Positions 6,270 through 55,571 of a stretch of DNA of 64,000 nt are shown piece by piece. The notes beneath the pieces were generated by a model. The model saw only the letters and a program-made list of their open reading frames with translations, was not told the DNA's origin and ran no database searches. Location: assembly GCA_000165345.1 (NCBI GenBank), contig CM000436.1:224001-288000 (forward strand). The letters run 5' to 3'. The position numbers and the translations under genes were made by a program. Position 1 is the first letter of the stretch. The number at the start of each line of letters is the position of its first letter.

Positions 6270-6330
6270 AGTGGGCCCAATCGGACTTTTGCCGCCCAAA
6301 GAGGGTCGGCACACACTGGCCCGCCCATGG
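6270..6330. promoter_or_regulatory. isolated GC-rich island with CCAAT box, E2F-like TTTTGCCGCCC and GC-box GGCCCGCCC
   Basis: GTGGGCCCAATCGGACTTTTGCCGCCCAAAGAGGGTCGGCACACACTGGCCCGCCCATGG lies about 330 bp upstream of the 6664 gene. The flanking GGGCC ... GGCCC can pair as a hairpin. Confidence 0.35.
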
Positions 6331-6663
6331 AGAAAATGCATTTCTGTTAAGGTATGAAGTGAGAAGGAAGTAGCAAGAAGAATAGGAATAAGGAAAATAT
6401 AGAGGTTAAAAAGGGGGAAAGAAGAGAAAGAAGGAGTAGGATATTGGACAATATCTAGACTATTATAATAACTTTTTGATTTTTTGAGCATAAACAAAAA
6501 ATATAGAAATTACAATCATTGGTTTAAAAAATAATTAAGAGAGATATTAATAGTTTGGAGGGAAGGAAGAATAGAAATTAGAAGGTTGAAATAAGAAGAG
6601 TTGTAAAATTATTATTGAACAGCTTAAAGTATTTGCCAGTGTTATGAGTATTTTATAGGGAAA

Positions 6664-7776: not shown

Positions 7777-7911
7777 TATAATATATATATTTATAATTAA
7801 ATATTAATGAATAACTTGATATATATTTATATATAAAAACACGTTTTGGCGCCAAGTATACCAAGTTATAATATATAAACTTTGCAAGGCTTGAATGTGA
7901 GAAGTTTTTGA

Positions 7912-8712: not shown

Positions 8713-9306
8713 TACGAAATTCACCCTAGCCAATGAGCAATGATTATACTATATTTGAATTGTTTTCAAATAGATTAGTTCCAATTAAATTTTTTTTCCT
8801 TCAATTTTTCTGTTTCCAATATTTGCATGTGCATGTAAACTATTTGGCGCCAGCGCCAGTTAACACCGGTATTGAAATTTAATTATTAACGTAATGAAAA
8901 ATAAAAAGAGGAGCCAAAAAATAATTTAATTTGAATTAAAGAAAAAGCAAAAAAAAAAATTTTGATTAAGTGGGGAAAAATAAGCCACTTAAAATTACTT
9001 TACTTCGAGATAATTGTGAGAAGATTTCTTACTAGAGTTTGAGGTGGAGAGTTGTAACAGAAAGGATTCAAAGGAAAGGACCATTCAATTGCGTAATTCA
9101 ATAAAGGGGAGGTAGTCAGATCCTCTTTGGATTTGTAAATAATTGGAAAATAGGTGGAAACAAGTGATTACAGAACTTTTTAAGAGTAAATTCTGTGTGG
9201 AGAGAGATAGAATATAGTTTTCATAAATAAGTATATTTATACTCTGTTAAAAAGATATTAAATAGTAGAACTTGGATATTCAAAGGCGGATGCAGAACAG
9301 ACAAAG

Positions 9307-10482
9307 ATGAGTGGGGAAGATGAACATAAGAATACTTTAGCAACTTACGCTCAAAAAGTTAAAGAGCATAGGGAACTGGAAGTTAGCTTGAAAAAGAAGA
9401 GAATGGAGATTAGGGAGCTAAGCAAAGTATATGATAAGACAGAGGATGATTTGAAGGCATTGCAGAGTGTGGGCCAGATAATAGGCGAAGTATTGAGACA
9501 TTTGGATGATGAAAAGTGTATAGTAAAGGCTTCAACAGGACCTAGATATGTTGTAGGATGTAGATCAAAGCTTGATAAAAGCAAATTAACATCTGGAACT
9601 AGAGTTGCTTTAGATGCAACTACTTTGACCATAATGAGAAGACTTCCAAGAGAAGTTGATCCAATGGTTTACAATATGCTTCACGAAGATCCTGGAAGCG
9701 TAAGCTACTCTCAAGTAGGAGGATTGAATGAGCAGATTAGGGAGATAAGAGAAGTTATTGAGCTTCCTTTGACTAATCCTGAGCTATTTAAAAGAGTCGG
9801 AATCAAGACTCCTAAGGGAGTACTTTTGTATGGGCCCCCAGGAACTGGCAAAACTCTTTTGGCTAGGGCTATGGCTTCATCCATGAATTGTAACTTTATG
9901 AAGGTTGTTGCATCAGCAATAGTAGACAAATACATTGGAGAAAGTGCGAGAGTTATAAGGGAAATGTTTGGTTATGCTAAGGATCACCAACCATGCGTTA
10001 TATTTATGGATGAGATTGACGCTATAGGCGGAAAGAGATTCTCCCAAGGTACTTCTGCTGATCGTGAGATTCAGAGAACCTTGATGGAATTATTAAACCA
10101 ACTGGATGGTTTTGACGAACTTGGGGCTGTCAAAATAATTATGGCTACAAATAGACCTGATGTGTTAGATCCAGCTCTATTAAGACCTGGAAGACTTGAC
10201 AGAAAGGTTGAAATTCCTCTTCCAAATGAAACCTCAAGAGTTGAAATCCTCAAGATTCATTCCTCTAAGTTAGCTAAACAAGGAGAAATAGACTTTGATG
10301 CTATTTGCAAGCTTTGTGATGGCTTTAACGGAGCAGATATGAGAAATGTTTGTTCAGAAGCAGGAATGTTTGCAATTAGAGCTGAAAGAGACTACATTAT
10401 TGAAGAAGATTTTCTCAAAGCAGTGAGGAAATTGGCTGAAAATAAGAAGATGGAAGGGAATTTGGACTACGAAAAGGTTTAA
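9307..10482 (+). CDS. RPT4: 26S proteasome regulatory AAA-ATPase subunit Rpt4 (PSMC6/S10b)
   Basis: Near-colinear identity to human PSMC6 over the whole length: [23 protein letters not shown], Walker [53 protein letters not shown]. The length of 391 aa matches. Confidence 0.95.
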
Positions 10483-38268: not shown

Positions 38269-38690
38269 TTTAGATCAAGAAATACTTTGTAAAGAAGGAA
38301 AAAATGACATAGAGTAGAATCACTTTAAGTATTGAAATGCGTATAGGGTATGGATTTGTTTTGTTTTTTTCTTCAAGTAAAAAAAAAAAAATGGGTTTTT
38401 TAATCCTTAAAAAATTTAATTTTCAACTATAGAAAAATATTAATTATAATTAGAGAAAATCCCCCAACCGCAAATTACAAAAAAAAAAATGTATTGGCGC
38501 CAAAAGCACACAAATACTAATTAGCAACTTTTTGTATAATTTAGACCAAATAAATAATTTGAGGATTGTGCTTAGTTGTTAGATGCCATAATTAGTATAA
38601 CTTTGAGAGCACAGTATACTTCTATGATCTAGCTCTAGCATCAAAAGGTTTCCTTTAAGAGATTTTAGATTGATATGCATTCAGTTCGAG

Positions 38691-41600
38691 ATGTCTTTAA
38701 GAGAACTGGTAGTGGGATCGACTCAGATGCTTGTGGAGAGTGTATTAAGGAGGATAAATGAAAATTTGCTGAATTACTTTATCAATTTGCCAGAAAGTAT
38801 TTGGTTGAGTGGGTTTTTAGACCAAGTAAATTTGAAAGATGTAATGTTAAATACAAGAGCGTTTTCCAATGAATGGTATTCTTTAGATATACCTTTCAGA
38901 CTTAAATATGGACATATAAGAAGAGCAAGTATCCAAGTTTTGTTAGCTCACTCAAAATTGGTGATGGAAGTTGAAGGGGTTGTATTAATTGTAGGCCCAA
39001 ATTTGGCTTATAAATCATACGAGGATGTGATAAGGAATTCAATGGACAATGTATTTGGGTTGGTTGAACTATTTAAGCATATCCAAACAATTAGATACAA
39101 CAATGATAGTTTTGAGGAAGGTTTAGGATCCCAAAAAGGGGAAGTTTCTGAGAATCTACTCAATATTAACTCGTCAAGTAAAGAAGGATTAAACGCACTT
39201 CTTAGATGGCTTTTTAGGTATGTTCCTGATTTGTCCCTTAGTATTAGAAATCTTTACATTCGCTATGAAGATGATGTGTTGGATACTTCTCATCCAATGT
39301 CAGCAGGAATTCATATTAATTCTGTGACTATTAATCCCGCTAGAAACTGTTGGGAATTTCAATGGCCAACTGAAGAGAAAGAACAAGTTGGATTTACTTC
39401 AAAGGGTAGCTCAGACTCTGAGACTGATCCAACCAATTTAGGTAAAACACAGCATCCTCTTTCAATTAATAATTCTAGTGCAGATCCAAGGGGTATTTTC
39501 AGTATTAAAGTTAAAGGTTTAAGCGCCTTTTGGGATGATGAATCTGCTCCATTTATTCCTATTTCATTGCTAGAGCAAACTGAAGCTTCAAATGATAAAT
39601 TTGGAGTATTTTCAGCAGTAACTATTGATGATATCCAGAATCTAGTCAACTCTAATCTACATTATCACACAAGGATTATTTCAAATCTTAATATTTCTGC
39701 TCAGTTTGGGTTTGTAAATCCTTTCATCCACAAGCTTTCTAACGAAAAAAGTCGTCAAAGCAATGATATCAGTGCTAATGGTAGTGATAATAGTAGTAGC
39801 AATAGTATGATTAATGGTAGTAACTTTGGACAAGGCTCTTCCTCTGAACCAATATCTTCTCAAGAATCCTCGTCTTCATCGTCATCTTCTACTTCCAAAA
39901 ATTCAACTGAAAATAATGGTTATATAGCAAAAGATTATTTGAACGATTACTATACTGGTTCTAATATTGCTACATTACTGAATATTAATATACAGAGTGG
40001 ATTTGAAATTAATGTTTATCCACAAATGATTCACGGACTTGTTAGATTCGTAACTCTCTATAATCAGTTTCAATTTTGGACACAAGTAAGGAGGTTTAGA
40101 CCAATTGAAAGGCCAGGAAGTGGTAAAACTCCTGCTGAAGTCAGAGCAATTTGTAGAGATTGGTGGATCTTTAGTCTTAAATATTACAGAAATATCAAAT
40201 ACAAAGACAACAAACAAAATAGTCTTAGAGATGAAATTAACTACAGGGTTGAAAGAAAAAAATATATCAAGATTATCAAAAAATGGAAATGGATCGAATT
40301 TATGATTACTGGCCAAAAACCTATTTTGAACTCTGGGACCATTATACACAGGACTGGTACTAATGAGTATAATGCATGCAAATTTGGCGGGATGAGTGGG
40401 CCCGCCGAATTTGGCAAGATGAATGAATATGCTAAAAGTATTGGAACTTCTATTTCATTTCTGGATTCGAATTTGAATGGTAATCCAAGTTTGTCATCAA
40501 TTCTCGGTCTAAGTTCTCTTATTATTAATCATTTGGGTGTATCTTTTAATTTAAGTAGATATTGGCAATACGATGTTGAAGTCTTACAAAAGGTATCAGA
40601 GAAAAGTGATGATATGAGATGTATATTAACTGTATTGCAACACCATTCTTATTGGGTGGTATCTCAATGGCATATTTTAGCAGAACGTGAGTTTGAAATT
40701 GAGTTTGCTTTATTTCAAAATAGTTCAACTATCCAAAAAAAGCAAAAAGGAGCTATGGATACATTTTCTAATGTAAACCATAATATGGATATCAAAACTA
40801 AGAATATCTTAACTTTACTAGCTTATGGCCTTCATATTCAGACTGATTCATCAGTTTGGGAGTTAATTAGTAAGTTAAGAGATAGTTATATTGATCTTAT
40901 TAGGAGAATAACGCAAGATGACTCTTTGAGTAACCGTATTAAAGAGAGTCTTCAATCTAAATCATCACTTTTGAGTGGAGGATCAGTTTTTGAATTTAAA
41001 CTAACTTCAGGAATTCCATCAACGGTACCGACACAAATATCTAATTTTATACAAGAAAATATTGAAAGACATCCTTATGTTATTTTTGGAACAGGAATCT
41101 TTAAGAAAAGTTTAATTGAAACTGATATTTTATCTGACTTCTTTGGTGTGGGGTTGAATTCTAAGTTACTAATGAAGAGACGAGATTGGCATGCAATCAG
41201 GCTTAGGTTACATTTATGGGGGAGGTTTTATGATGAATATTTTGAAGCCTTTCCATTAGCTATTTCAGAGACTTTAGAGATTAATCAATTAATGAACTTG
41301 AGCTACCACTTAGACTTCCAGCAAATGAACAAATTGTTTAGTATTTCAATGCAAAGTGATTCTTTATGTTTCTCAACTTTAGTTTCTTCTCAGGCTACAT
41401 CTTCAAATCCTATGGAAGATATTGATATGTCAATGGGAGTTACAAATGTGACTATGGCAAGACCAAAGAGTCAACAAATATCGATCATTGAAAGAGATCC
41501 AGAGTTTTCATTATCTTTGTCATCTTCTTCAACTAAACTTGAGAAATCTGAGGAGAATAGGAATGAAATGGATCATATTGGAAAGGATAATCATACAGAT

Positions 41601-44600
41601 AAGTCTGAAATCTATAATTTGTCTAAATCAGGTATCTCTATGAATCAATTAAATAAAGAATACGCAAGTATGGAGTCTAATGAGATGGTAGAGGAGGAAA
41701 GTATTATAAATAGTACATCTGTTAAAAAGAAATCATTCAAGTTTGAGAAAAAGTTACCATATGTCTTTAAAGATTCATCAAATGTTCCAGAATGGCTGAG
41801 TGATTTGGCAGGACCTGGAATTAGCCTTCCTAAGATCATTTCAAATAAAATTATTGGGATTTGTATTCCTAAATTTGAGGTTAATATTTGTCATTTGGTT
41901 AGTGACAGTAAAAAATCTACAGGAAATGGTAAATCTGGACCAAATAATGGTGAATCCAATGTAGAAACTACAGGATTTAGCCCGAATAATTCAAATAGGA
42001 TTGATGGAATCAAAAGAAGTTACCACTCATTAGCAAGATATTTTAGTAGAAATGCTCAGGATACTGGTAATAATACTATGGTAACGAGTGTATTTACTCC
42101 AAGAAAGCTTTTTGGGATTGTGATTACTGGCTTAGGATTTAATATGAGTACATGCACAAGCCTTAGAGTAAGTTCTTGCTTTAAGAGGATGGAGTTGATA
42201 GTTTGGAACTATAATGACAGTAACTTGATGAGAGATTTCATTTCCAGTATCAAGTCGGATAGGTCAGTAAACAAGAAAATGATCAGAGATGATCAAATTG
42301 TCATATTTTCAATGTCTGATGAAAGACAAAATACTAGTAATGAATCATCATCATCATCAAATTATGTACAAAATAAGGGAAATACTTTGGGTAGTAGTAT
42401 TACAACTGTATCCGGATCTATTTCTGTATCAGGATCAGGATCTGGATCTGGATCTGGATCAAGTTCAAGGTTAGAAGTTTTGGGAATAGGAATGGGTCAA
42501 ATGAATAACTTTCCCGAAAACCCTTCAATTGAAGGAGGAGTTGATGGAAATAAAGTCCAAACTCCAAATAGAAGAGGTTCTTCAAGCTTAAATGAATATG
42601 ATAGTTCTCCATCTTTAACTCATTATGTAGACGAAGCACATGGAGGTACATTTTCGTCATATATTGTTGGAAATGGACGACAAGGTGGTTTGACATCTTC
42701 AAAAAGTGTGAGATTTGAAGATTCAAGAGGAATAAGTACTAGTTCAACTTCATTAGGAAAGAATTCTTCAGTCATTTCAGCTTCTTCTGAATTAACTAAT
42801 GAATCAAGTTTTGGTAGTATTAGAAATGATAATAATAATACAACATCAGTATCGGTACCTAGTACTATGAATAATAATCAAACAAATAGTATTATAAGAT
42901 ATATGAGAAGATGGAATTACTTGAGTTTGGTGATGTTACCACCAAATAATTCGACTAATAAAGAAAGTAAAGGAGAAGTGAGAGGAAATGGAGAATCCAA
43001 TTTTTTAAGCTTTGTATTTAAGTTACCTTTTTATTTAAAGATGGATATTAATTTGACGCCTGTAACTATTGTACTTAACGAACAGCTTCTTGATAATATT
43101 CGTGGTGAAATTTTGAAATTAATTCAGGTATGTCTATTGACTATTTGGAGTCAGTATAAAGGACTTGGAGCATTTCCAGTTACTGATGGATTTAGAGAAT
43201 TATTAGTACAAGAAGTTAGTACTAGTGGTAGTGGTAATGGATTAGTAGAGAGTTCTCGAGAAGAGAATAACTTTGAATTACTTCTTTGCCACCCTTTTAA
43301 CTTATCATTAAACAAATATAATGCTATTAATAAGTTAAATAAAATAGAATGGAATAAGATTAATTCATTATTAAATAAAGTACATGTAAGGATTTCAATT
43401 AGGTTACCTTCAGTGGAGTTATTTATGTTAAATGAATCAATCGAATATTTCCGTCAAATGGATGATGATTTATTTATTGAAAGAAATTCAGATGAAAGAT
43501 TTGAAAATGTATCATTTGATTTATCAACATCTTTTAAACTTTCTGTTGAATCTCAAACTATTTTGATTGGGACAATTATTGATAAATTACGTGGGAATAT
43601 CAATAGATTATACTTTAGAGGCTTTCAAATGAAATTCGATACTCAACAAAATATAACTAGTATAATAAGGTTATATTTGAGATTCAAGAATTTAATTTCG
43701 GATAGATACGGTAATATTATTGCTATTATGAACTTATTCAAGGATTACAAATTTGATAATATCTCTAGACACTCTCTAACAAGTTTTACTGACGAGATCT
43801 TGAGGCTTCAATGCGAAAAATTACCTGATACTAACAATATCTTGCTTAAAGAATTTACTTTAAGCTTGGATGAAAAGTCAGGTACTAAAGTTGAAAGAGA
43901 TGAGAAGAAGTCAGTGGAAGTGGAAAAAGTGGGAATGGAAGCGGAGAGAGAGGTGGAAGCAGAGAGAGAGGTGGAAACAGAAAGGGAAGTGGAGACAGAA
44001 AAGACAATGAAAACAGAGAAAGAAATGGATGTGGAAAAGGAAATTGATATGAAAAAGGGAATAGATGTGAGAAAGAAGGTGGAACTGGATAGAGCAGTGG
44101 AGACAGAGGAAAAGAGAATGGGAACGGAGGAAAAAGGAATTGAATCGAAGAAAAAAGAGTCTATAGATTCTTTATCCAAACTTCCAAGGCAAGAATATTC
44201 TCAACACACTGTCCTAATTCAACCTACAGAGCCTATTCCTGCTCCAGTTATAACATCGTATCCATCTCCAACAGTATCTCCTTGTATTTCTCCAACAATT
44301 TCTCCAACACCTATTCCATCTACATTTGTATCTCCAGCATTTTCTGTATATTCTGCTCCAAATCATTCTCAATATCCTCTTCCAACACATATTCATACTT
44401 CTGATGTTACTAATTCAGTTTTGTCCGAAGCCATAACTAGAGCAATCCCAGTAACAACACCACATGAACAGGTAATTACTACTGTCGATAACACACAAAC
44501 ATATTCTGTTAGAGAGGTTAGAACAGAAGACAATGAAATTCGCCGTTCTTCTCAGTATAATAGTGCTAATGTGAAGCCAATAAACTTGCATGAAAACCAA

Positions 44601-45008
44601 ATAGGAACAGAAATTAACAATACAAATGGAAATTTTGAAACTAGAAGAAAGTCTAGCAACCTTATATTAATTAGAGACATTGAGACTCAGAGCCTTAAAG
44701 ATAAGAATGATAACCACAGTCTTACTATAGAAAAACAAGGAACAGAGGAAGAAAAAAGAAACTCAAATGACTATCATCACCTCCGCCTCCATCATCATAT
44801 TCCAACCAAAAACCAAGCAAATTTAGTTCCTCATATTGGTAAAGTATGCGAAGAAAAAGAATCTGAAATTCTTAACAGGGAATTTATACAAAGAAATAAC
44901 AACCATGAATATATTGAAACACAATCTTCACCTCATCAAAACACTAAGAAAATACAAAAAAAGAAGCCTCCAATATCTCTTAGGTCTGGCTTCAATTTTA
45001 ATAATTAA
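38691..45008 (+). CDS. Chorein-N domain bridge-like lipid-transfer protein (VPS13/ATG2 family), 2111 aa. ORF track start 38670 is TTG.
   Basis: The N-terminus MSLRELVVGSTQMLVESVLRRINENLLNYFINLPESIWLSGFLDQVNLKDVMLNTRAFSNEWYSLDIPFRLKYGHIRRASIQVLLAHSKLVMEVEGVVLIVGP fits the Chorein_N pattern (L..YL..L.....G.....L.N..L....L..P..V..G.I..L.I). It is a long, mostly non-repetitive body with a low-complexity C-terminal 400 aa. That tail includes a (GS)n run, EREVE tandem repeats and a P/S/T-rich stretch. Confidence 0.7.
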   Translation: MSLRELVVGSTQMLVESVLRRINENLLNYFINLPESIWLSGFLDQVNLKDVMLNTRAFSNEWYSLDIPFRLKYGHIRRASIQVLLAHSKLVMEVEGVVLIVGPNLAYKSYEDVIRNSMDNVFGLVELFKHIQTIRYNNDSFEEGLGSQKGEVSENLLNINSSSKEGLNALLRWLFRYVPDLSLSIRNLYIRYEDDVLDTSHPMSAGIHINSVTINPARNCWEFQWPTEEKEQVGFTSKGSSDSETDPTNLGKTQHPLSINNSSADPRGIFSIKVKGLSAFWDDESAPFIPISLLEQTEASNDKFGVFSAVTIDDIQNLVNSNLHYHTRIISNLNISAQFGFVNPFIHKLSNEKSRQSNDISANGSDNSSSNSMINGSNFGQGSSSEPISSQESSSSSSSSTSKNSTENNGYIAKDYLNDYYTGSNIATLLNINIQSGFEINVYPQMIHGLVRFVTLYNQFQFWTQVRRFRPIERPGSGKTPAEVRAICRDWWIFSLKYYRNIKYKDNKQNSLRDEINYRVERKKYIKIIKKWKWIEFMITGQKPILNSGTIIHRTGTNEYNACKFGGMSGPAEFGKMNEYAKSIGTSISFLDSNLNGNPSLSSILGLSSLIINHLGVSFNLSRYWQYDVEVLQKVSEKSDDMRCILTVLQHHSYWVVSQWHILAEREFEIEFALFQNSSTIQKKQKGAMDTFSNVNHNMDIKTKNILTLLAYGLHIQTDSSVWELISKLRDSYIDLIRRITQDDSLSNRIKESLQSKSSLLSGGSVFEFKLTSGIPSTVPTQISNFIQENIERHPYVIFGTGIFKKSLIETDILSDFFGVGLNSKLLMKRRDWHAIRLRLHLWGRFYDEYFEAFPLAISETLEINQLMNLSYHLDFQQMNKLFSISMQSDSLCFSTLVSSQATSSNPMEDIDMSMGVTNVTMARPKSQQISIIERDPEFSLSLSSSSTKLEKSEENRNEMDHIGKDNHTDKSEIYNLSKSGISMNQLNKEYASMESNEMVEEESIINSTSVKKKSFKFEKKLPYVFKDSSNVPEWLSDLAGPGISLPKIISNKIIGICIPKFEVNICHLVSDSKKSTGNGKSGPNNGESNVETTGFSPNNSNRIDGIKRSYHSLARYFSRNAQDTGNNTMVTSVFTPRKLFGIVITGLGFNMSTCTSLRVSSCFKRMELIVWNYNDSNLMRDFISSIKSDRSVNKKMIRDDQIVIFSMSDERQNTSNESSSSSNYVQNKGNTLGSSITTVSGSISVSGSGSGSGSGSSSRLEVLGIGMGQMNNFPENPSIEGGVDGNKVQTPNRRGSSSLNEYDSSPSLTHYVDEAHGGTFSSYIVGNGRQGGLTSSKSVRFEDSRGISTSSTSLGKNSSVISASSELTNESSFGSIRNDNNNTTSVSVPSTMNNNQTNSIIRYMRRWNYLSLVMLPPNNSTNKESKGEVRGNGESNFLSFVFKLPFYLKMDINLTPVTIVLNEQLLDNIRGEILKLIQVCLLTIWSQYKGLGAFPVTDGFRELLVQEVSTSGSGNGLVESSREENNFELLLCHPFNLSLNKYNAINKLNKIEWNKINSLLNKVHVRISIRLPSVELFMLNESIEYFRQMDDDLFIERNSDERFENVSFDLSTSFKLSVESQTILIGTIIDKLRGNINRLYFRGFQMKFDTQQNITSIIRLYLRFKNLISDRYGNIIAIMNLFKDYKFDNISRHSLTSFTDEILRLQCEKLPDTNNILLKEFTLSLDEKSGTKVERDEKKSVEVEKVGMEAEREVEAEREVETEREVETEKTMKTEKEMDVEKEIDMKKGIDVRKKVELDRAVETEEKRMGTEEKGIESKKKESIDSLSKLPRQEYSQHTVLIQPTEPIPAPVITSYPSPTVSPCISPTISPTPIPSTFVSPAFSVYSAPNHSQYPLPTHIHTSDVTNSVLSEAITRAIPVTTPHEQVITTVDNTQTYSVREVRTEDNEIRRSSQYNSANVKPINLHENQIGTEINNTNGNFETRRKSSNLILIRDIETQSLKDKNDNHSLTIEKQGTEEEKRNSNDYHHLRLHHHIPTKNQANLVPHIGKVCEEKESEILNREFIQRNNNHEYIETQSSPHQNTKKIQKKKPPISLRSGFNFNN
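42432..42461 (+). repeat. (GGATCT)n coding microsatellite giving (GS)n
   Basis: ggatcaggatctggatctggatctggatca. Confidence 0.9.
43938..44060 (+). repeat. imperfect 18-bp coding tandem repeat (GAAGCRGAGAGAGAGGTG)n encoding (EAEREV)n within the Chorein-N gene
   Basis: Units at 43938, 43956, 43974, 43992 and 44010 read as EAEREVEAEREVETEREVETEKTMKTEKEM. Confidence 0.8.
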
Positions 45009-45230: not shown

Positions 45231-46070
45231 ATGACAACAGTAATTAAGAAGAAGATTAAACTTCCGAGGAATATAACACCTGAATTTGTAAGTTTATTAG
45301 ATTAAGCTTAAAAAAAGAGATTGGTGAGAATTTCTTAATTTAAAAGAATTTCTTTCTTATTAAACAGTAATGATTTCTTAATTCTGGGAGAGTATTGAGA
45401 AATCATTTAATTAATTTTCTCTATTAATTATTGATTAACTTAACTTATTATTTTCTTCAAATAGGCTGTTGAATTGAAGGAATGTTTTGATTGGCAAGAT
45501 AGAAATGGTGATGGATTAGTTTCCAAGGAGTGTTTACTGGTATTATTAAGAGCAACAGGCCAGGTTTGGTCACTTGATGAAATTGACAAAATATGTCATG
45601 GTAAGTTTTTTGTTCTCCATTTGTAAAAAAAAAAAAGAAAAAATTGTTTAATATTGTAATATATTCATCTTTAATATTATAAAATTAAATTAAATAAAAA
45701 AATTCTTATTACTCGCAATGTTAGGACTTGGTTCAAAGGAAGTCGATTTCCAGACATATCTCGATTTAGTATCTCATAAAGTTATGTTAAAGGCTGATAA
45801 GGAAGAGTTAAGAACTGCCTTTAATGTTTTGGATAGATATGGAAATGGTAAAGTTTTGGTTAGTGATTTGAAACATATTTTGTGTAATATTGGAGAGAAA
45901 TTGACTGTAAGTTACATAAATTAACTCTTGTTTTTTAAGCTAAGCTTAAATATTTTGAATTGAATTCTATATTTTAGGAGGATGGTTTCCAAGAACTCTT
46001 GAGTATTTCAGATATTCCTGATGCAAATAGGTTAACATTTTTAACAGAAGAGGAATTTGTGAAAATGTAA
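45231..46070 (+). CDS. EF-hand protein, myosin essential light chain/calmodulin-like, 155 aa. It has 4 exons: 45231-45287, 45465-45600, 45725-45906 and 45978-46070.
   Basis: Three GTAAGT donors sit at 45288, 45601 and 45907. The AG acceptors (atag, ttag, tttag) are preceded by T-rich tracts. The spliced product reads MTTVIKKKIKLPRNITPEF AVELKECFDWQDRNGDGLVSKE... DFQTYLDLVSHKV...ELRTAFNVLDRYGNGKVLVSDLKHILCNIGEKLT EDGFQELL. This matches the myosin essential light chain pattern (FLPML..., LRVFDKEGNGTV...LRHVLTTLGEKMT). All phases are consistent. Confidence 0.7.
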
Positions 46071-46613
46071 GTTTATAATGGAAGGAATTGGATAAAGAAA
46101 TTGTATATGGGAAAGAAAAAAAATTATGAAAACATAAGAAGTAACTATTTTCACTATAATATTTTTTTTATCCATCCTTTCGTATTCAAAAAAAAACTAT
46201 TATCATTTTAATTATCTAATTTACTATTTTTATTGCTATATAATTTATTTGTGTAGATTTTCAGGAAATGTTAATTAATAGATTTAATTGTCTTTAAGTC
46301 TCGAATTTAAGTCAAAATAGAATTTTTCTTTTTTTGGAGGGAATTTTCTGAATGATATTATTTTGAAATATAATGTTAAATACAGATTGCTTGAATAATT
46401 AGCTGAATAAGATTTTCTATTATTGCTAATAATATTACTGTTACCAATTTGTTAGTATAATTTTCTGACTTCCGGGTTTGTATTGAATAATTTGGCTCCA
46501 AATAAAATCTACAAATTTCAAGCAATACTTACTTGTGATAAGGGTGGTATTAAATTTAGTACCAAAATATATAGGGGAGAAAAAAAAAGGACGGAAGAAT
46601 ATTATACATTATA

Positions 46614-49600
46614 ATGCAAAGTGATTTTCAGTATAAAGATCTTTTGACAGTTTTTAACATTCCAATTTCACTTTGGGTACAAAATGGGACTCATTTATTT
46701 CATAAGAATACTTCAACTTTGGTTGATAAAAATGGTAAAAGACTTTGTATTAAGGTAAGTTAAAAGGTGAAATTAATAAAATTAAATATTATATTATTAA
46801 TAAAATAAATTGATATATAGTGTATTATTGATATGTTTAAAAATAACCAAAAATCAAGTACATATTTATCACAGATTTGTGAAGATTTGATGTTGGTAAG
46901 TTAAAATAGATTAATAAAATTCATTTTCATTAAAAAAAAAAAAAAAAAAATTCAGATGATAAAATGTGAGAGAGGTAAAGGAGTTGTAAGATTTATTATA
47001 AGTGAGATTTTGGGAAATGAAAGTAATTTCATTATTGAAGAAATTAATAAAGTTGACGTAAGTTTTTGAAGTATATTTAAAAAATTATTAATGAAATAAT
47101 AAAAATAATATAATTTAAATGATAAATTTAATAATTAGGATGAAATGTTACTTAATAATCTTATAAATTTGAAGTTAACATTATTAAACAAACATTTTTC
47201 AATATCAGAAAATAAACAAAGACAAAAATTAAATGAAAATATATTAAATATAATAATTAAAAGTGTAAGTAAATTGTAATAAATATTTTATTATAAATAT
47301 TGATTTAATATAATTAATTTAACAAATAATTTTAGATGAATAATTTGAATATAAGAATGAGATCAATGGCAAAATTAATATATATACTATTTGATGATAG
47401 ACTTTCAATATACTCGAATAGTTTAATAGATAGAATAGTGGAAGATACAAAAAATCTATCAAGCTTTGGAAAGATGATTTTGAGAATGGACATAGAGAAT
47501 ATTCAATATTTAATTCCTATAATAGTTAAATTAATAGAATGCAATCCTGAGAAAGTAATAAATAATTTATTGATTGATAAAGGACTACATTTATCAAGAT
47601 TATTATGTGAAGTTACGGATAAGAAGATTTATTTTGAATATATTTTAGAGTTTTATTTACATATATTAAATAACTATCCAAATCAATTTGGAAATTTATT
47701 AATAGATAACAGTAATAGATTGGATATAAAAAGTAATAATAGTAAAGAAGAGTTATCTTTGAACATTTTAGTCGGAATAGAAAAGATGGCAATAATTCTA
47801 GCAAGATCAAGTAAATACTCTAAAAGCAATAATTATCATTCATCCAGAAACTTGGATATTGATAAATTTCAAGATACAGAATTTTCAATGAGTGACTTGG
47901 AATACATGCAGCAGGGAGGTTCTATTCCCAAGATGGGTAATTTTTTAATTAATAATTCTATGAATGAAAATAATATATTAGAGGAGATGGGAGAGCATGG
48001 TGAAAGGAGTTTGAGGATGAATATAAGCAATAGTAGTATTGGAAGTAGCATTATGAACATGAATAATAATCACATAAGTTATGGAAGAAAGGATTTTATG
48101 GAAATAAATGAATTGGAAGAAAAGAAAGTTGTTGATGGAATTAATATGTTTGGATTATTGAGAAATAGGGAAGAAGATGATAATAGATTAATGAAGAAAT
48201 TGATTCAATTTTTTAAAGGTTTTATGCTATATAAAAATAAAATGGAATTATTTTGGAATTCTGATAAAGAAAAGATAGATTTAGAAGATGATGAAGTAGA
48301 TTCAAATATAGATAATAACTGCAAAAAAAACAGATGGATTATGGAAGGAGAGTGTTTTGAAGTTGTTCATAAAATAATTGAATGGATAATAGAATTACTA
48401 AGAAATAGTATAGAAGTTGAATTAGATAACTTAGCTTTAGATTGTATTTTGCAAGTATTCACACAAGAAAAGTGCTGTAATTATGAGGAAGAGAAATCAG
48501 AAGCTGATGAAGAGCTTTCAGACCTTAATATAAATCAAAAAGATAATGATAATAATAAAAACAATTTATTGGAAAAAAATTCCGCAAATATAGAATTAAT
48601 AAATGAAGATAAATCGGAAGATTTTATTTTTAATATGAAACCTTTAAATATGAAATCCAAAAGAGTAACTTTCAAAAGAATTGAAGAAATTCCACCAAAA
48701 AAAAAATTAATAACTTTTAATGATGTGGATAAAAATAAATTACGTGTAAATGCATGCAAGCAAGGCGGGTCAAAATGTGACAATAATACCGGTATAGAAC
48801 AAAATAAATCATGTGGAAAATTATGTTTTCACCAGATTTTTGTAATAAAACATGGCCAGTATTTGTTGGATATTTTTTTAGAACTTTTTGATGATTATTT
48901 AAGAAAATTTGGATTAAATTTTATAAGAAGAAAGAGTGGAAATGCAAAGAGTTTATCATTTTATGACCAAAGTTACAAATATATAATCGATAATGAGCAG
49001 CAGATTGAGGAGGTATTATATAAAATAATTCAGGGAATAAATAATATTTCAGATGGGGTTGCTATTCAATCATGTCCTAGACAGATATTTGCAATAAGTT
49101 GGTTTATGGAATTTATTTTATACGGTTTTTCGAATGAGGAATCTGTATTAAAAAGTAAGCCACCAGTTCCTTTGTATGGTTCATCAAGTATGGATTTAGT
49201 AATGAAAGCTGCTAATATGGATCAACCATTGGAGCATGCACTATTAAGTATTTCTACAAAATTTAGTGAGGAAAGTAATCAAAATAATGAAGAAGTGAAT
49301 CAAATTCAAAAAGGATTAATTAATCAGATTGATACTATAAATCAGGTTCAAGTAGAAGTTGTTAACAAATTAATCTCTCTAACAGAAAGGATGTGTAAAT
49401 GTTTGTATAGCAAGGGTAAAAGAAACTCTAAATTAGAAGGTGAACATTTTAATGGAAGCTTTTATCAAGTGGATATCAAAAAGTTATGGAAACTTAATGG
49501 TACAGTTTACAGTAGGGATCTGCTACTAGAATATTTTTCAAATATCCTCCAAATTACAGAAAAGTTATTCGGTTTTAAAGGTGTTAAAGTTATTCAATTC

Positions 49601-52600
49601 TTAGATTCTACTGATAAGTTATTTGAATTTTATACCCGAGAATTAAAAAATAAGGAACGGAATATAGTTTGTTTGTCCCAACTATACTTAATTCAGCATA
49701 TTTTTGATACAAACTTAACAAGTGAATACGAGGTAAAAGATTCTTTAACTAAAAATAAAGATCCTCAAGCAAATTTAGTATTTAATATTTTTTCTATAGT
49801 ACTTCAAATTGATAAGAGAATTCAAGATAATCTTGAAGATTTGGATGAAGTAAATGACCAAATTCTGCAAAAGGCAGATAGCAAAATTAAGCTATTAATT
49901 AATAATAAGGTTGGAGCTCAGCTAATATTCCAATGGATTAAAAATCCTAATATTGGCGATCAAGAAATTTATGGAATTAAAACTAACATTTTAATAAGAT
50001 GGATAATTCACATTTCTAAACAATTATTACATCCAATTATGAATGAAAATGAGATTAGTAGCAGATTAAAGTATTTAACCAAAGAAAGGATTAAAGCTTC
50101 CTTGCTACTAGACGACTCTGCTTCAAACGATACAATTTCTATTGTAATTTCTCTTTTAACATTTTGTTATGGCTATTTTCCAGATCAAGTTATTCTATTC
50201 ATTTTAAAAAATATTAATCGAGAAGAAATTCAGGATCTTGAATATCCAGGAATATGTAATATTTCTGAAGATATTGCTCAAAAGATTAATAATTATGGAA
50301 AATCATCTGCTTTTGGAAATCTTTCCAATACAAGAAATATCCCAACTAGAGTACTTCTTTATTATTCATCCATACTTTTGGATAATACCAGTAGAAATGG
50401 TAAAAAGAATATTGATTTATTTCAAGATTATTCCTTCCAAAAAGACAAAATTGTTGCTAAGATTATTTCCATATTAGTTAATTCAAATTTAAGACGTAGA
50501 GAATGGCTACTTTGGCATTCAAAAAATTTTGACAAAATTGAACTTTTTTCAAATTCATTACATAATCTTATTCAATCAAGAGGAGAAATAGGAAACTATC
50601 AAGAACAGAAAAAAATTGAAGAGCAAATCTTTAAATGGATCTATGATCGAAATATCGATTATTCAAGATATCAGGTCAGTTCTAGACCTTTTTCAATATC
50701 TTCTTTTTACTTTGGATTGGTTGATTTCTCAATTTCCCCTATTTTAGAGAAATCTATATTGCAAAATGTATCATTTATTAAGTTTCAGATCAAACAATTA
50801 CTAAATCTTAGCTCTATAAAACCCAACACTTGTACTGAATATGAACTTGAGGATTTCATTCAAAAGCTAAGTATGAACTTGAATTTGTTCATCTTTTCAA
50901 TTCAAAGTTATATCGAAAGAAACGATCAACTTAATTTTGCTGATATACTTACTATTGAAGAAGTTACTTTACCTTTAAAACTATTTTTAAATATTAATAG
51001 TGATGAATTTGATTTCAGATTTAAGGCAATTATTGGCCATTTAACTTTAAAATTCATTTCAGTTTTCTTTAAGCCAAGCTGGAGAGAGTCAAACTTTCAA
51101 GAATTAAATAAATCGAATCCGTCCTCACAAGTATTTGGAATTAAAACTTTTACAAGTCTTGATAACTTTGGAAAAAGTTCAAACAGAAAAACTTCAAGTT
51201 TATTATTTATTCTAGTAAATCTGATGGATGAATTAACAAAGTGGTAAGTTTTTTAAATATACTAATTTAATCAAATAGACGAATATATCTTTATATTTGT
51301 ATATACTTTTTTTAATTATTTTTTACCTTCAGGATGAATGAAATTTTCAATATGAACAACTTTGACAAGTTTTATGTATCTGCCTATTTAGAAACGTTTT
51401 CAAGTTTGGTTTTGGAATTAGGAATTAGAGATAACATCCTTTCTCAAAGTATGGATATCGGATCAGGAGGTGAAAAAGGAGAAATATTTAAACTCAAGAT
51501 AAGGCAATCACTAATCAATTTAGTTCAAAGTGACTCTACTGTTTCTTTAATAGAGAAGATATTAAACTATATCATTATTTGCAGAAGAAAAGGTAACAAT
51601 TTGGATGCGGACAAATCAAGTTGTTTAATGGGTATCTCCATATTACTACTTTCCATGTTATCAAGTAAAATCAAAATATTCAGAACTAATGGAAGATTAG
51701 AGAGTCTTATTGATTCTATTTTAGCTCATCCAACATTGTTATTTCATGCTGAAAAAAGCTCAAAATGTGGATTAAATTCTCGCTTTTCGTCTGATGAATA
51801 TGATAATTCGCTTATAGATAACAATACAACGAGTTTCAATCTATGTAACTATTGTCTTAATTTTGGCTTCAATCATAACATAGAAGATATTAAATTAATA
51901 ACCAATGTTTCTATTATTGTGGCATTGCTACGTCTAAATCATGTAAATAGTAGAGCAATATCAAAAAGTAACTTAATTAAAGATATTTTTCTACAAAGCA
52001 TTTCAGGGATTTTAAATACAAATAATAAAGCATCATCAGTAAGTCATGGATATATGGGAATTATATTATCGTCAATATATTTATCATATGACCAAATTCA
52101 GTCTTTGAGCCTTGTACATAATTTGTATATTCAAAAATTCCTTGTAAAGGAGTTTGTTTGTGATGTTTTAAACTTTGACAAGAATCCAGTTGAAAATTTA
52201 AATCTTTCTCCATGTATGATATTTCATTATTCTGTATTATTTTCATATTTGGTTTTTATATTGAAGACTACTCCTTGGTGGCTTAATATTTCTGATTTGA
52301 TCAATCTAACATTCATAAATAAACTTGGAAAGATTTATAAATCATTACAAACTTCCGCAATTATTTATAATGATGAGAATGACAATATTGGAGAATATTT
52401 AATTAGCTTGACAGAGATTCTTTTAAAAATTGTACAAGAAACAATAATGGCTCGCTCTAACTCATCTTCTAGTTATATTCAAGGTAAGTTAATTTCTGAA
52501 TAATTGAAATATATATAGAGCGTGTTTTAAAATATTTGATTAACTTTTTCTTTCTGATTAAGATGAAAAAAACAATGCAGAAAATAACGGAGTAATTATT

Positions 52601-52886
52601 AAATTAATACAAGAAATCCTTAAAAACCAAGAAAATGAAAATATTCAAGACTATAATATAACATTAGTAAGAGAACATGCAAATTCAAGAAATGGAAATA
52701 TTCTTAAAAATACCTCAAATTGTAGAAATAATAGAGGATCTGGATGCTTTATCTGTGGTTTTAAATACAAATTCAAATACTTTGAAAGTAAAGAGAGTTT
52801 TATAAGTAACTTTTTTATTTCTCAAGTATTAAAGTTTTCAACTATGGAGATATTTAAAAGAATTATTGAAAATTAGTATCAAATTC
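46614..52886 (+). CDS. large (about 1940 aa) helical-repeat hypothetical protein with 7 exons: 46614-46754, 46821-46895, 46956-47057, 47139-47264, 47336-51244, (51333 or 51373)-52493 and 52573-52886.
   Basis: Four short upstream exons each end at a GTAAGT donor. Each is followed 60-80 nt later by an AG acceptor in the correct phase, leading into the 1303-codon ORF at 47336. TGG-TAA-GTAAGT at 51245 and an acceptor ttttaccttcag at 51332 link to ORF 51334-52503. The phase match at that junction is ambiguous. A donor CAAG|GTAAGT at 52494 and acceptor ttaag|AT at 52572 give a phase-correct final exon ending TAG 52884-52886. No recognisable catalytic motif is present; it is HEAT/ARM-like helical. 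Confidence 0.55.
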
Positions 52887-52959
52887 AAATATTTACTCAA
52901 AATTTTGAATTTTTTATTCTTAATATATATTGCTAAAATTTCCAACCCACTCATAATAT

Positions 52960-53030
52960 TTGCAAGTGGACAAATGCATGCAATGCAAATGCATGCATGT
53001 GCATGTATTTGCATTATGACATCCAAGCCT
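52960..53030. promoter_or_regulatory. dense GCATGC cluster (GTGGACAAATGCATGCAATGCAAATGCATGCATGTGCATGTATTTGCAT)
   Basis: Five overlapping GCATGC/ATGCAT palindromes lie in the 250-bp gap between the large-gene stop (52886) and the Rad21 ATG (53138). Confidence 0.4.
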
Positions 53031-53137
53031 GACAAAAAGAAAATGTATATTATACATAGGAGGAAAAAAAATCAAGTTTTAACAATATAAACAAACATAT
53101 TAAAGATAGACAGAATTAATTATTCAAAAGGTTAAAA

Positions 53138-55571
53138 ATGGAATCAAGAATATTAAAGTTTGAGAGTAAGTTTCAAATAATAAAAAGAGGAGATTATAGT
53201 AGAAAATAAAATTTCTGCTTATTGGAAATATATCATTGAAGGAAAAAAATTTTAGAATAAAGTGATTAACTATTTTTCTGTTTCTTTTTAATAAATTTAG
53301 CTAGTGCAGGTAGATTGTGGATTGCAGGAACATATGGAATAAACAAAAAACCTTTTAACAAGAAGATAATTCAGGAAGTAGTCGTAAAGTCAGAAGTGGC
53401 AGATTTTGTTACTTTGGCGAATAATATGAGTTATTCTTTAAGAGTTTCAGCTACACTGTTGAGAGGATTGATGCTCATTTATGATAAGCAATGGATATAT
53501 TTGGGTAAGTTTGGCCTTTAATTCCAATTTGGGGATGATTCTTATAAGAAAGTTTAATACTAAATCGTTATTTTATCTCATTCAGAATCAGATTTGGATA
53601 ATTTATATTTGAGGGTAAGTCTAAAAATAATTACAAATTTTTTTTTGATCATCATTATTAACAAATCATTACTAAAAATAGTTTAGGGAAGGAAGAAATG
53701 AGACAGAAAATAAAAATAATTGTAACACATTAGTTAGGAGGAATAGAGGAGAAAAGAAGAATTCTTTATTGACTGAGTTAATTTCAATAAATTCATCACT
53801 TAGTTTGAATGGCGATAATTTGAGTAATAGCAGTAATAATGATCGAAATGGTGAATTGGTTTTGTCATTGGATGCTGAGAATTTTGTTTTGGACTTAGCA
53901 AACAAAAGTATTGATGAATTGAATTTTGAAAATATTCTTTTCAAAGGTAATGGAAATAGTTCAAATATTGGAAGGATTGAGGATATTACTCTTCCTGAAA
54001 TTAATAGAAATAAATCCAACTTGTCAAGAGATTTTGGAGTTGAGCAGGATTTCGTAAGTCTAGAGGAGAGTAATAATGAAGAAAATGAAGATGAAAGTGG
54101 AAATAGTGGAGGAAAAAATAGCATAAAAAATTCATCAGATAGAAGAGGAGAAAGCCAGATAGTACTATGGTCTTCAATAAATAATGAGGATTTTATGTTT
54201 CAGGGAGAAGAAAGTGAAGAATTACTTGAACAATTAGAAAGAAAAAAGTTAAATGCTGAAAGAAGCAAATTATCGGATCGAGATAAAGAAAATCAGTTTA
54301 TGGAGGAGACTACTGAGATAGTTTGTGAAGCTCAAAATAGAGGAGAAAATAGAAAAAGATCTAGATGTTTAAGTCATCTTGATGTTGATTTAAAGTTTAA
54401 AGGAATTAGCTCTATTAATAAGAATCAGCTTGAAATGTTGGTATTTAATGATGAAATAATTGCTGGTATGGATGAAAGATTAAGAGGTTGGGACTCATAT
54501 AAGTGGTGGCAAACAGAAACCCAAAAAAATGAGAAAAGTCAATTTCTAATAAAGTTCCAAAGCCTTGCAATACGTAGTATGAAAAAATCCAAGAGAATCT
54601 CAGTATCAAACCAAAATGGTAGTAATTTAGACATGTATGAAGCAATAGAAAAACATAGAGGTGAATATGATACAGGAGTTGAGTATAGTAACGTTGATTT
54701 GGGATTTGACCATTTTAATTTGGATAATGGTTTTGTTGGATCTCCAAGTAATCGTTTTAGAAATGGCCGTGATACTATTGAAAGCTCAGTTAATTATTAT
54801 GGAGATGGTGCAAATTCTTCAGGTGGAGCAAGATTACAAAGTGGAAGAGAGTCTATGATTTTCTCAGATAGTAGACGAGGTTCCAATGATGGAGTTAGGT
54901 TATCAACCATGTTAGAAACTGGGTCAGTATTATCATACAATAGTTCTCCTTTCCAGTTTGAAAAAAACTTAATGGGTATCCGAAGAGATTCGTCTAATTC
55001 TGAATTACAAAGAATTGTGAGATCTGGAAGGCTTAGTGGATCAATAGTAGGTAATAGCTACGATAAACAATACAGAACAAATTCTATTGCAACCAGTATT
55101 AGTGATATATTTTGTATGGAGGAAATTAAATCATCTAATTGGAGCAAAAGTGGAATCACTACAAGTAGTGGAACTTATAATTTGAAGACTTATACTGTTC
55201 AGAAATTCATTGCAACTAGAATGAAAGAAATTAGAGAAATTAGAAAGATTAATGAAGAAAATGGCTACTTAATGGACAATAATACTTCAAACAAAGAAAA
55301 TATAGGTAGCCATAATAGAGAGGAAGAAAATTCTGGAACTTTCAATAAGAAAAAAGACAATAGAAATGTTGAATCTGATGATAATGAAGAAGAAATGTCA
55401 ATTTACTTAAGTGAATTATTACCAGAAAAAACTGCTACAAAATGTACTGCTGCAGTTTTTTTCTATCATCTATTAGTTCTTGCAACATATAATGAAATCA
55501 AACTCACTCAAAGTACACCTGGGGGTAATATTAAGATTACAAAAACTAGCTCATTTAATGAAGAAAGTTAA
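53138..55571 (+). CDS. RAD21: cohesin kleisin subunit Rad21/Rec8 (SCC1) homolog with 4 exons: 53138-53165, 53301-53504, 53586-53614 and 53682-55571.
   Basis: The spliced N-terminus MESRILKFETSAGRLWIAGTYGINKKPF...SLRVSATLLRGLMLIYDKQWIYL matches the Rad21_Rec8 N-domain (IWLAAH...[23 protein letters not shown]). The C-terminus KCTAAVFFYHLLVLATYNEIKLTQSTPGGNIKI matches the Rad21 winged-helix C-domain ([31 protein letters not shown]). GTAAGT donors sit at 53166, 53505 and 53615. The ORF track start at 53769 is a TTG codon inside exon 4. Confidence 0.8.

What the first reader, a model, noticed from the sequence alone, without database searches (positions are those of the whole stretch)
46614..52886. 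Seven-exon, roughly 1940-aa gene in an otherwise intron-poor region, with one unresolved junction
Four micro-exons of 141, 75, 102 and 126 nt precede the 3.9-kb exon. Each ends at a perfect GTAAGT donor and is separated by 60-81 nt introns. This is unusual given that 17 of 24 genes here are single-exon. At 51245 the ORF stop TAA is itself part of TGG|GTAAGT. The obvious acceptor ttttaccttcag|G at 51332 is out of phase (it would give GAT GAA TGA). In-frame continuation into ORF 51334-52503 needs either the weaker donor AA|GTGGTA at 51241 or the downstream acceptor gacaag| at 51372. A 1-nt assembly error is a further possibility. The product is a HEAT/ARM-like helical protein with no recognisable domain. 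It sits immediately upstream of Rad21, so a cohesin-associated HEAT protein is conceivable but unsupported.
Basis: partly seen in the sequence, partly recalled or inferred. Interest (0 to 1): 0.5.

Follow-up and report, generated by a model that had tools for sequence, protein, structure and literature searches.

The report
Seven-exon Cryptosporidium helical-repeat protein gene
This is an ordinary spliced gene for a 1938-residue helical-repeat protein found only in Cryptosporidium, and the "unresolved" exon junction was a one-base counting slip, because the obvious splice sites join in frame.

Summary
The seven-exon gene is real. The exons are 46614-46754, 46821-46895, 46956-47057, 47139-47264, 47336-51243, 51333-52483 and 52563-52876. 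All six donors are GTAAGT, and the introns are 66, 60, 81, 71, 89 and 79 nt. The product is 1938 aa with no internal stop.

The "unresolved junction" does not exist. GTAAGT starts at 51244, so the donor is TG|GTAAGT, not TGG|GTAAGT. Exon 5 therefore ends in phase 2. The acceptor cag|G at 51332/51333 supplies the third base of a Trp codon, and the frame continues as ATG AAT GAA.

This phase-2 intron inside an invariant Trp codon is conserved in C. ubiquitum, C. xiaoi and C. muris, at 84, 70 and 123 nt. The four micro-exon junctions are conserved as well.

The window is C. parvum or a very close relative (97% identity to C. hominis CHM_8g990). Several public annotations truncate or split the orthologue at this same TAA.

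The protein has no Pfam domain, no sequence relative in the PDB and no homologue outside Cryptosporidium. Structure predictions are all-helical. The N-terminal 299 residues fold as a generic ARM/HEAT solenoid.

Rad21 does lie immediately downstream, and that gene order is conserved, but nothing specific links the protein to cohesin. The finding is ordinary, with some value for annotation.

The parts
46614..46754 (+). Exon 1, 141 nt, residues 1-47, starting at the ATG. It encodes the conserved motif IPISLW..H27-x2-H30..LC45IK.
   Evidence: The same 141-nt exon is present in C. ubiquitum; it is 144 nt in C. muris. Protein conservation is shown.
46755..46820 (+). Intron 1, 66 nt, phase 0, GTAAGT...TATAG, 10.6% GC. 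It splits the conserved C45-x2-C48 motif.
   Evidence: The position is conserved in C. ubiquitum, C. xiaoi and C. muris.
46821..46895 (+). Exon 2, 75 nt, residues 48-72.
   Evidence: The C. parvum model cpbgf_800990 (P0013) matches it exactly from Met52.
46896..46955 (+). Intron 2, 60 nt, phase 0, GTAAGT...TTCAG. It contains an A19 run at 46932-46950.
   Evidence: It is spliced out in the C. parvum model P0013.
46956..47057 (+). Exon 3, 102 nt, residues 73-106.
47058..47138 (+). Intron 3, 81 nt, phase 0, GTAAGT...AATTAG, 8.6% GC.
   Evidence: The length is a multiple of 3, but the intron carries an in-frame TGA after 3 codons.
47139..47264 (+). Exon 4, 126 nt, residues 107-148. It contains the conserved motif LLNKHFSIxEN.
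   Evidence: It is also 126 nt in C. ubiquitum and C. muris.
47265..47335 (+). Intron 4, 71 nt, phase 0, GTAAGT...TTTTAG.
47336..51243 (+). Exon 5, 3908 nt, residues 149-1450 plus the first two bases (TG) of Trp1451.
   Evidence: It is 82% nucleotide-identical to the C. ubiquitum exon, against 67% for the adjacent intron.
51244..51332 (+). Intron 5, 89 nt, phase 2, TG|GTAAGT...TTTTTTACCTTCAG|G. The in-frame TAA at 51245-51247 is part of the donor consensus.
   Evidence: The same position and phase occur in C. ubiquitum (84 nt), C. xiaoi (70 nt) and C. muris (123 nt).
51333..52483 (+). Exon 6, 1151 nt: the last base of Trp1451, residues 1452-1834, and the first base of Asp1835. It contains the conserved H1583..H1589..C1622-x2-C1625 motif, a conserved hydrophobic helix at residues 1549-1567, and an unused in-exon GTAAGT at 52039.
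52484..52562 (+). Intron 6, 79 nt, phase 1, GTAAGT...GATTAAG.
   Evidence: It is present in C. ubiquitum and absent in C. xiaoi. The C. canis model translates through it.
52563..52876 (+). Exon 7, 314 nt, residues 1835-1938 plus the TAG stop at 52874-52876.
   Evidence: The C-terminus ...VLKFSTMEIFKRIIEN is identical in C. ubiquitum.

Best explanation
One protein-coding gene on the + strand of a Cryptosporidium parvum-type chromosome 8 segment is interrupted by six short, AT-rich, canonical GT-AG introns. All six donors are GTAAGT, the sequence that pairs best with U1 snRNA.

Intron 5 lies in phase 2 inside a Trp codon (TG|G). After TG, the donor consensus GTAAGT necessarily reads TGG TAA, so an unspliced reading looks like a genuine ORF end. 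Splicing to the strong polypyrimidine-CAG acceptor at 51332 restores the frame.

The 1938-aa product is an all-helical ARM/HEAT-like solenoid. It is conserved throughout the genus Cryptosporidium and has no detectable relative elsewhere.

By inference only, it most likely acts as a large non-enzymatic scaffold or adaptor that binds partner proteins along its solenoid surface. Two conserved His2-Cys2 clusters may bind zinc and stabilise it. The first cluster is completed only after intron 1 is removed.
For: - Gene model: the seven exons concatenate to 5817 nt with no internal stop.
- Donors: six of the seven + strand GTAAGT sites in the gene fall exactly at frame breaks, against 1.1 sites expected by chance.
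- Intron composition: introns are 8.5-20% GC and exons 14-28%.
- Exon versus intron conservation: against C. ubiquitum, exons are 79-91% identical and introns 49-74%.
- Junction: annotated orthologues in C. meleagridis, C. ubiquitum, C. canis, C. xiaoi and C. ryanae read ...ELTKW|MNEIF... straight across it. Trp1451 is invariant.
- Intron 5 conservation: it has the same position and phase in four species, with lengths 89, 84, 70 and 123 nt.
- Residues after the acceptor: they are conserved in C. xiaoi (INSVYN) and C. muris (LSKIFDNN), where no ATG is available at that point.
- Micro-exon junctions: they fall at identical protein positions in C. muris, the deepest branch of the genus sampled here.
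- Protein: no Pfam hit and no PDB sequence hit.
- Taxonomic range: an exhaustive HMMER search of 1.84 billion representative proteins found only Cryptosporidium proteins.
Against: - No transcript data could be consulted, so the splice sites rest on consensus plus comparative evidence.
- A tandem donor 3 nt upstream (AA|GTGGTA at 51241) is also in frame with the same acceptor. It cannot be excluded as a minor isoform.
- The model of residues 650-1838 is poor (pLDDT 51.7), so the fold of two-thirds of the protein is known only as 'helical'.
- The scaffold function and the zinc binding are inferences with no direct test.
- One or two hydrophobic helices (residues 1549-1567 and 1742-1760) pass a classical transmembrane threshold, so a membrane association is not excluded.
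Confidence: 0.88

Rival explanations
1. There are two separate genes. An N-terminal protein ends at TAA 51245-51247, and an independent 389-aa protein starts at ATG 51334. This is how the locus is annotated in C. hominis, the chipmunk genotype, C. muris and C. andersoni.
For: - The C. hominis model CHM_8g990, chipmunk genotype model ELE39_000505 and C. muris model CMU_024900 all end at ...LTKW or ...FTLW.
- C. andersoni cand_021690 is only the C-terminal piece.
- In this window an ATG directly follows the acceptor.
Against: - The 70-123 nt gap always starts TG|GTAAGT and ends with a pyrimidine tract plus AG|G, in four species.
- The residues between the acceptor and the first ATG are conserved in C. 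xiaoi, C. ryanae and C. muris.
- Five other annotations read through the junction.
- An 86-nt intergenic space holding both a terminator and a promoter is implausible when the mean intergenic length is about 550 nt (PMC4637869).
Confidence: 0.05
2. The junction uses a non-consensus site, either the donor AA|GTGGTA at 51241 or the acceptor gacaag| at 51372. Alternatively, the assembly carries a 1-nt error.
For: The donor at 51241 is in frame with the acceptor at 51332 (read directly from the sequence).
Against: - The consensus pair is already in frame.
- The 51241 donor would delete the invariant Trp1451.
- The 51372 acceptor is out of frame with the real phase-2 donor and would delete the conserved residues MNEIFNMNNFDK.
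- The same sequence recurs in 34 blocks of independent assemblies.
Confidence: 0.03
3. The protein is a highly diverged cohesin HEAT subunit or regulator (Scc2/Nipbl-, Pds5- or Scc3-like) that is kept next to the kleisin gene Rad21.
For: - The gene order EF-hand gene, this gene, Rad21, class II aminoacyl-tRNA synthetase is conserved in C. ubiquitum, C. xiaoi and C. muris.
- A published survey found no Scc2, Scc4, Pds5, Wapl or Eco1 in Apicomplexa (PMC3195147).
- The protein's size and solenoid fold are compatible.
Against: - No Cohesin_HEAT, Nipped-B_C, STAG or Pds5 Pfam match appears in any of the 8 orthologues, even at E <= 10.
- No PDB sequence match.
- Gene order is conserved across this whole region, and gene order rarely signals function in eukaryotes.
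Confidence: 0.03

Closest known systems
Cryptosporidium ubiquitum cubi_03324 (1947 aa, 'uncharacterized protein'), with the full-length orthologues in C. xiaoi (RS030_142215, 1937 aa) and C. ryanae (FG386_002142, 1949 aa)
   Same: - 74%, 36% and 35% identity over 93-100% of the query.
- C. ubiquitum has the same seven-exon layout with identical micro-exon sizes.
- The phase-2 intron in the Trp codon is shared.
- The neighbouring genes are the same.
   Different: - C. xiaoi lacks intron 6.
- C. xiaoi and C. ryanae carry extra low-complexity insertions.
- None of these proteins has an assigned function.
Truncated or split public models of the same gene: C. hominis CHM_8g990 (1375 aa), C. parvum cpbgf_800990 (58 aa), C. 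canis OJ253_476 plus OJ253_475, C. muris CMU_024900 (1268 aa) plus a downstream 408-aa model, and C. andersoni cand_021690 (373 aa)
   Same: They are the same locus. CHM_8g990 is 97% identical, and cpbgf_800990 is identical over exons 2-3.
   Different: - They stop at the TAA inside the intron-5 donor.
- They skip exons 3-4, or treat the micro-exons as a separate mini-gene.
- The C. canis model translates intron 6.
- The model reported here joins all the pieces.
Generic ARM/HEAT alpha-solenoid scaffolds, such as the HUWE1/Tom1 armadillo-like region, IPI1, PP2A B56, importin-beta family members, Nup188 and MO25
   Same: - Foldseek's best matches are designed armadillo repeats and MO25.
- The rest of the protein is predicted to be all-helical.
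   Different: - Sequence identity is only 5-15%.
- No single family stands out.
- No Foldseek hit reaches E <= 0.001.
- No HEAT or ARM Pfam repeat profile matches.
- Two conserved His2-Cys2 clusters are not a feature of these families.

Membership tests
Spliceosomal GT-AG intron-containing protein-coding gene (Cryptosporidium type) | Every intron starts with GT and ends with AG, and removing the introns yields one uninterrupted reading frame. | tested here: met
   Six GTAAGT...AG introns. The spliced CDS is 5817 nt with no internal stop.
Spliceosomal GT-AG intron-containing protein-coding gene (Cryptosporidium type) | Intron positions and phases are conserved in orthologues, while intron length and sequence drift. 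| tested here: met
   Introns 1-5 fall at identical protein positions in C. ubiquitum, C. xiaoi and C. muris. Intron 5 is 89, 84, 70 and 123 nt. Intron identity is 49-74%, against 79-91% for exons.
Spliceosomal GT-AG intron-containing protein-coding gene (Cryptosporidium type) | Spliced transcripts are observed. | not testable with these tools
   No RNA-seq or cDNA resource is available here. There is only indirect support from other groups' gene models.
ARM/HEAT alpha-solenoid fold class | An all-helical architecture of stacked helical hairpins or triplets, with structural similarity to known solenoids. | tested here: met
   [not shown]
ARM/HEAT alpha-solenoid fold class | A match to HEAT or ARM repeat sequence profiles. 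| tested here: not met
   No Pfam family at E <= 1 for this protein. No repeat family at E <= 10 in any of the 8 orthologues.
Cohesin HEAT proteins (Scc2/Nipbl, Pds5, Scc3/SA) | A sequence match to the family profiles (Cohesin_HEAT, Nipped-B_C, STAG, Pds5) or to solved family members. | tested here: not met
   Pfam scans of 8 orthologues gave no such family. The profile search against PDB sequences gave 0 hits at E <= 10.
Cohesin HEAT proteins (Scc2/Nipbl, Pds5, Scc3/SA) | A specific structural match, such as the hook-shaped HEAT array, that stands above other solenoids. | tested here: inconclusive
   [not shown]
Cohesin HEAT proteins (Scc2/Nipbl, Pds5, Scc3/SA) | Binds the kleisin Rad21/Scc1. 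| not testable with these tools
   This needs co-purification or complex prediction. The only observation here is that the two genes are adjacent.
Scaffold nucleoporins Nup188/Nup192(Nup205) | A sequence or specific fold match to the Nup188 or Nup192 families. | tested here: inconclusive
   [not shown]

The most novel reading that the evidence does not exclude
The protein is the unrecognised, extremely diverged Cryptosporidium counterpart of a cohesin HEAT regulator (Scc2- or Pds5-like). Sequence surveys report that class as missing from Apicomplexa. On this reading, its genus-wide adjacency to Rad21 would reflect shared regulation, and the two conserved His2-Cys2 clusters would be lineage-specific zinc sites.
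Probability: 0.03. Interest if true: 0.6.

Novelty: already known. Interest (0 to 1): 0.15.

Why it matters
The main value is for annotation. The phase-2 GTAAGT donor creates an apparent TAA stop. That stop has caused this gene to be truncated or split in public annotations of C. hominis, C. parvum (BGF), C. canis, the chipmunk genotype, C. muris and C. andersoni. The full 1938-aa model joins those pieces.

Biologically, the gene is one of the larger proteins that is conserved across the genus but restricted to it, in a major diarrhoeal pathogen. It may therefore interest people looking for parasite-specific biology. Nothing here points to a new mechanism.

Tried and rejected
- Pfam scan of the full protein at E <= 1, and of 8 orthologues at E <= 10: nothing meaningful.
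- Profile search against all PDB sequences at E <= 10: no hits.
- Word-indexed homology searches with the single protein, the full alignment and the N-terminal alignment: only Cryptosporidium proteins.
- Exhaustive HMMER search of residues 650-1838 against 1.84 billion representatives: six hits, all Cryptosporidium.
I re-ran it with the C. ubiquitum fragment as the first row.
- The afdb50 fold library was unavailable.
- Literature search for cgd8_980 to cgd8_1010 in full texts found nothing. The supplement of PMC4637869 lists cgd8_990 and cgd8_1000 only in a divergence table.
- The two-gene reading, alternative splice sites and an assembly error were considered and rejected. The reasons are given under the rival explanations.
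- A transmembrane reading of hydrophobic helices 1549-1567 and 1742-1760 was considered. It stays open, because Ile/Leu-rich buried solenoid helices reach the same hydropathy score.
Full report
**Where the window comes from.** The window is 30% GC. The assembled protein is 97% identical to C. hominis CHM_8g990 and 90% identical to the C. meleagridis orthologue. A 58-aa C. parvum model, cpbgf_800990, matches exons 2-3 exactly. The 389-aa downstream ORF recurs identically in 34 blocks of public assemblies. The window is therefore C. parvum chromosome 8 or a very close relative.

**Checking the observation.** All coordinates given for the first five exons are right. The ATG is at 46614. Exons 1-4 are 141, 75, 102 and 126 nt, each followed by GTAAGT, with introns of 66, 60, 81 and 71 nt. 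Exon 5 runs from 47336. Each micro-exon's frame hits a stop within four codons of its donor, so reading through is not an option.

GTAAGT is expected 22.6 times on both strands of the 64-kb window. That is about 1.1 times on the + strand of this gene. It occurs 7 times (P about 1.5e-4), and six of those fall exactly at frame breaks. The seventh, at 52039, lies in conserved coding sequence (SSVSHGY) and is unused. Introns are 8.5-20% GC and exons 14-28%.

**The junction.** The sequence reads ACA AAG TGG TAA GTT. GTAAGT begins at 51244, so the donor is TG|GTAAGT, and exon 5 (47336-51243, 3908 nt) ends in phase 2.

With the correct phase, the acceptor TTTTTTACCTTCAG|G (exon 6 starts at 51333) supplies the third base of Trp1451. 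The frame then runs ATG AAT GAA ATT through to the next GTAAGT at 52484. Exon 7 (52563-52876) ends at TAG 52874-52876.

The seven exons give 5817 nt and 1938 aa with no internal stop. No weak splice site or sequencing error is needed.

It would delete the invariant Trp. The alternative acceptor at 51372 is out of frame with the real donor.

**Comparative test of the model.** Annotated orthologues in C. meleagridis, C. ubiquitum, C. canis, C. xiaoi and C. ryanae read ...ELTKW|MNEIF... across the junction. Trp1451 is invariant.

I mapped the C. ubiquitum, C. xiaoi and C. muris proteins back onto their DNA. Intron 5 has the same position and phase in all three: TG|GTAAGT ... pyrimidine tract-AG|G. 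Its lengths are 89, 84, 70 and 123 nt. The residues directly after the acceptor are conserved even where there is no ATG (xiaoi INSVYNTNN, muris LSKIFDNN). This argues against a separate downstream gene.

Introns 1-4 fall at identical protein positions in C. muris, with exons of 144, 69, 105 and 126 nt. C. ubiquitum has micro-exons of exactly 141, 75, 102 and 126 nt. Against C. ubiquitum, exons are 79-91% identical and introns 49-74%.

At least the first six exons therefore predate the split between the gastric and intestinal Cryptosporidium lineages. Intron 6 is present here and in C. ubiquitum but lost in C. xiaoi.

**Why the junction misleads.** After TG, the donor consensus necessarily reads TGG TAA, so an unspliced reading gives a clean ORF end. 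Public models fall into the same trap:
- C. hominis CHM_8g990, chipmunk ELE39_000505 and C. muris CMU_024900 stop at ...TKW or ...TLW.
- C. andersoni cand_021690 is only the C-terminal piece, and C. muris has a separate downstream 408-aa model.
- The C. parvum BGF annotation (cpbgf_800990) and C. canis (OJ253_476) annotate the micro-exons as a mini-gene.
- The C. canis model translates intron 6.

**What the protein is.**
- There is no Pfam domain in it or in seven orthologues.
- There is no sequence relative among PDB chains at E <= 10.
- No homologue outside Cryptosporidium turned up, either in three word-indexed searches or in an exhaustive HMMER profile search of residues 650-1838 against 1.84 billion representatives (identities).
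- The N-terminal 299 aa modelled well (pLDDT 78.7, pTM 0.77). The model shows a small beta element followed by 14 helices.
- Foldseek finds nothing at E <= 0.001, and its best matches are designed armadillo repeats and MO25.

So 'HEAT/ARM-like solenoid without a recognisable domain' is right, and no specific family can be assigned.

**Conserved features read from the alignments.**
- H27-x2-H30 ... C45-x2-C48 is conserved out to C. muris (SHSSHEN ... FCTKC). C48 is the first codon of exon 2, so this motif exists only after splicing.
- H1583, H1589, C1622-x2-C1625 and G1629 are invariant in the five full-length sequences. The Cys-x2-Cys and HP..L.H motifs are also present in C. andersoni.
- These look like two His2-Cys2 metal sites. 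That is an inference and has not been tested.
- A hydrophobic helix at residues 1549-1567 is conserved. It could be a buried solenoid helix or a membrane segment.

**The cohesin idea.** Rad21 is indeed the next gene (Rad21_Rec8, E = 4.4e-8). The order EF-hand gene, this gene, Rad21, class II aminoacyl-tRNA synthetase holds in C. ubiquitum, C. xiaoi and C. muris. A 2011 survey found no Scc2, Scc4, Pds5, Wapl or Eco1 in Apicomplexa (PMC3195147), so the niche is formally vacant.

Nothing specific supports filling it with this protein. There is no cohesin-HEAT profile match. Scc2 and Wapl rank 57th and 43rd among generic solenoids. Conserved gene order in this genus is general rather than informative. 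I rate this reading at about 3%.

**How unusual it is.** In the re-annotated C. parvum genome, 10.8% of genes have introns. Those genes have 2-10 exons (mean 2.6), and the mean intron is 99 nt at 22% GC (PMC4637869). Seven exons is in the upper tail but within the known range, and the introns are typical.

**Verdict.** This is a real, ordinary, already catalogued hypothetical-protein gene. The flagged anomaly is a counting error. The useful outcome is a corrected full-length model, together with an explanation for recurrent mis-annotation at this locus. The function remains unassigned beyond the inference that it is a large solenoid scaffold.

Noticed in passing
window 45288-54059 (+ strand): Fifteen of the 24 + strand GTAAGT sites in the 64-kb window fall in this 8.8-kb stretch, against 1.55 expected. 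Three consecutive genes here are intron-rich. The EF-hand gene has candidate donors at 45288, 45601, 45907 and 46067. The 1938-aa gene is the second. Rad21 has candidate donors at 53166, 53505, 53615 and possibly 54054. This is a local cluster of multi-intron genes in an intron-poor genome.
   Followed up: partly
window 52975-53014: Two exact copies of the palindrome TGCATGCA lie at 52975-52982 and 52990-52997, with further TGCATG/TGCAT copies nearby. They sit in the 262-nt spacer between this gene's stop and a candidate Rad21 start codon at 53139. From my own knowledge, this octamer is a recognised apicomplexan upstream motif, so it is probably part of the Rad21 promoter.
   Followed up: no
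window 46692-46823 and 51724-51855: Two conserved His..His...Cys-x2-Cys clusters occur at H27/H30/C45/C48 and H1583/H1589/C1622/C1625. Both are kept in the gastric-lineage species (C. muris for the first cluster, C. andersoni for the second). They may be zinc sites. The first is split by intron 1, so it forms only in the spliced product.
   Followed up: partly
window 51625-51681 (residues 1549-1567): A hydrophobic 19-residue segment has a Kyte-Doolittle score of 1.7 here and up to 2.4 in orthologues. It is conserved across the genus. It may be a membrane helix or simply a buried solenoid helix.
   Followed up: partly
L003 (C. muris) 4001-9580; L001/L002; proteins P0003, P0004, P0005, P0010-P0013: Public gene models of the orthologue are inconsistent. 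They are truncated at the TAA inside the intron-5 donor, split into two or three genes, skip exons 3-4 (C. hominis CHM_8g990), or translate intron 6 (C. canis OJ253_475).
   Followed up: yes
window 38670-45008 (+): A 2112-codon open frame just upstream has no Pfam match at E <= 0.01. Syntenic large genes of 1772-1989 aa precede the EF-hand gene in C. xiaoi, C. ubiquitum and C. muris. This is another large uncharacterised protein.
   Followed up: no
window 46932-46950: Intron 2 contains an uninterrupted A19 run. Such a homopolymer could cause length errors in assemblies, but it lies outside the coding sequence.
   Followed up: no
window 51241-51249: Two candidate donors lie 3 nt apart, AA|GTGGTA and TG|GTAAGT, and both are in frame with the same acceptor. 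Using the upstream one would remove only the invariant Trp1451. A minor isoform cannot be excluded without RNA data.
   Followed up: partly
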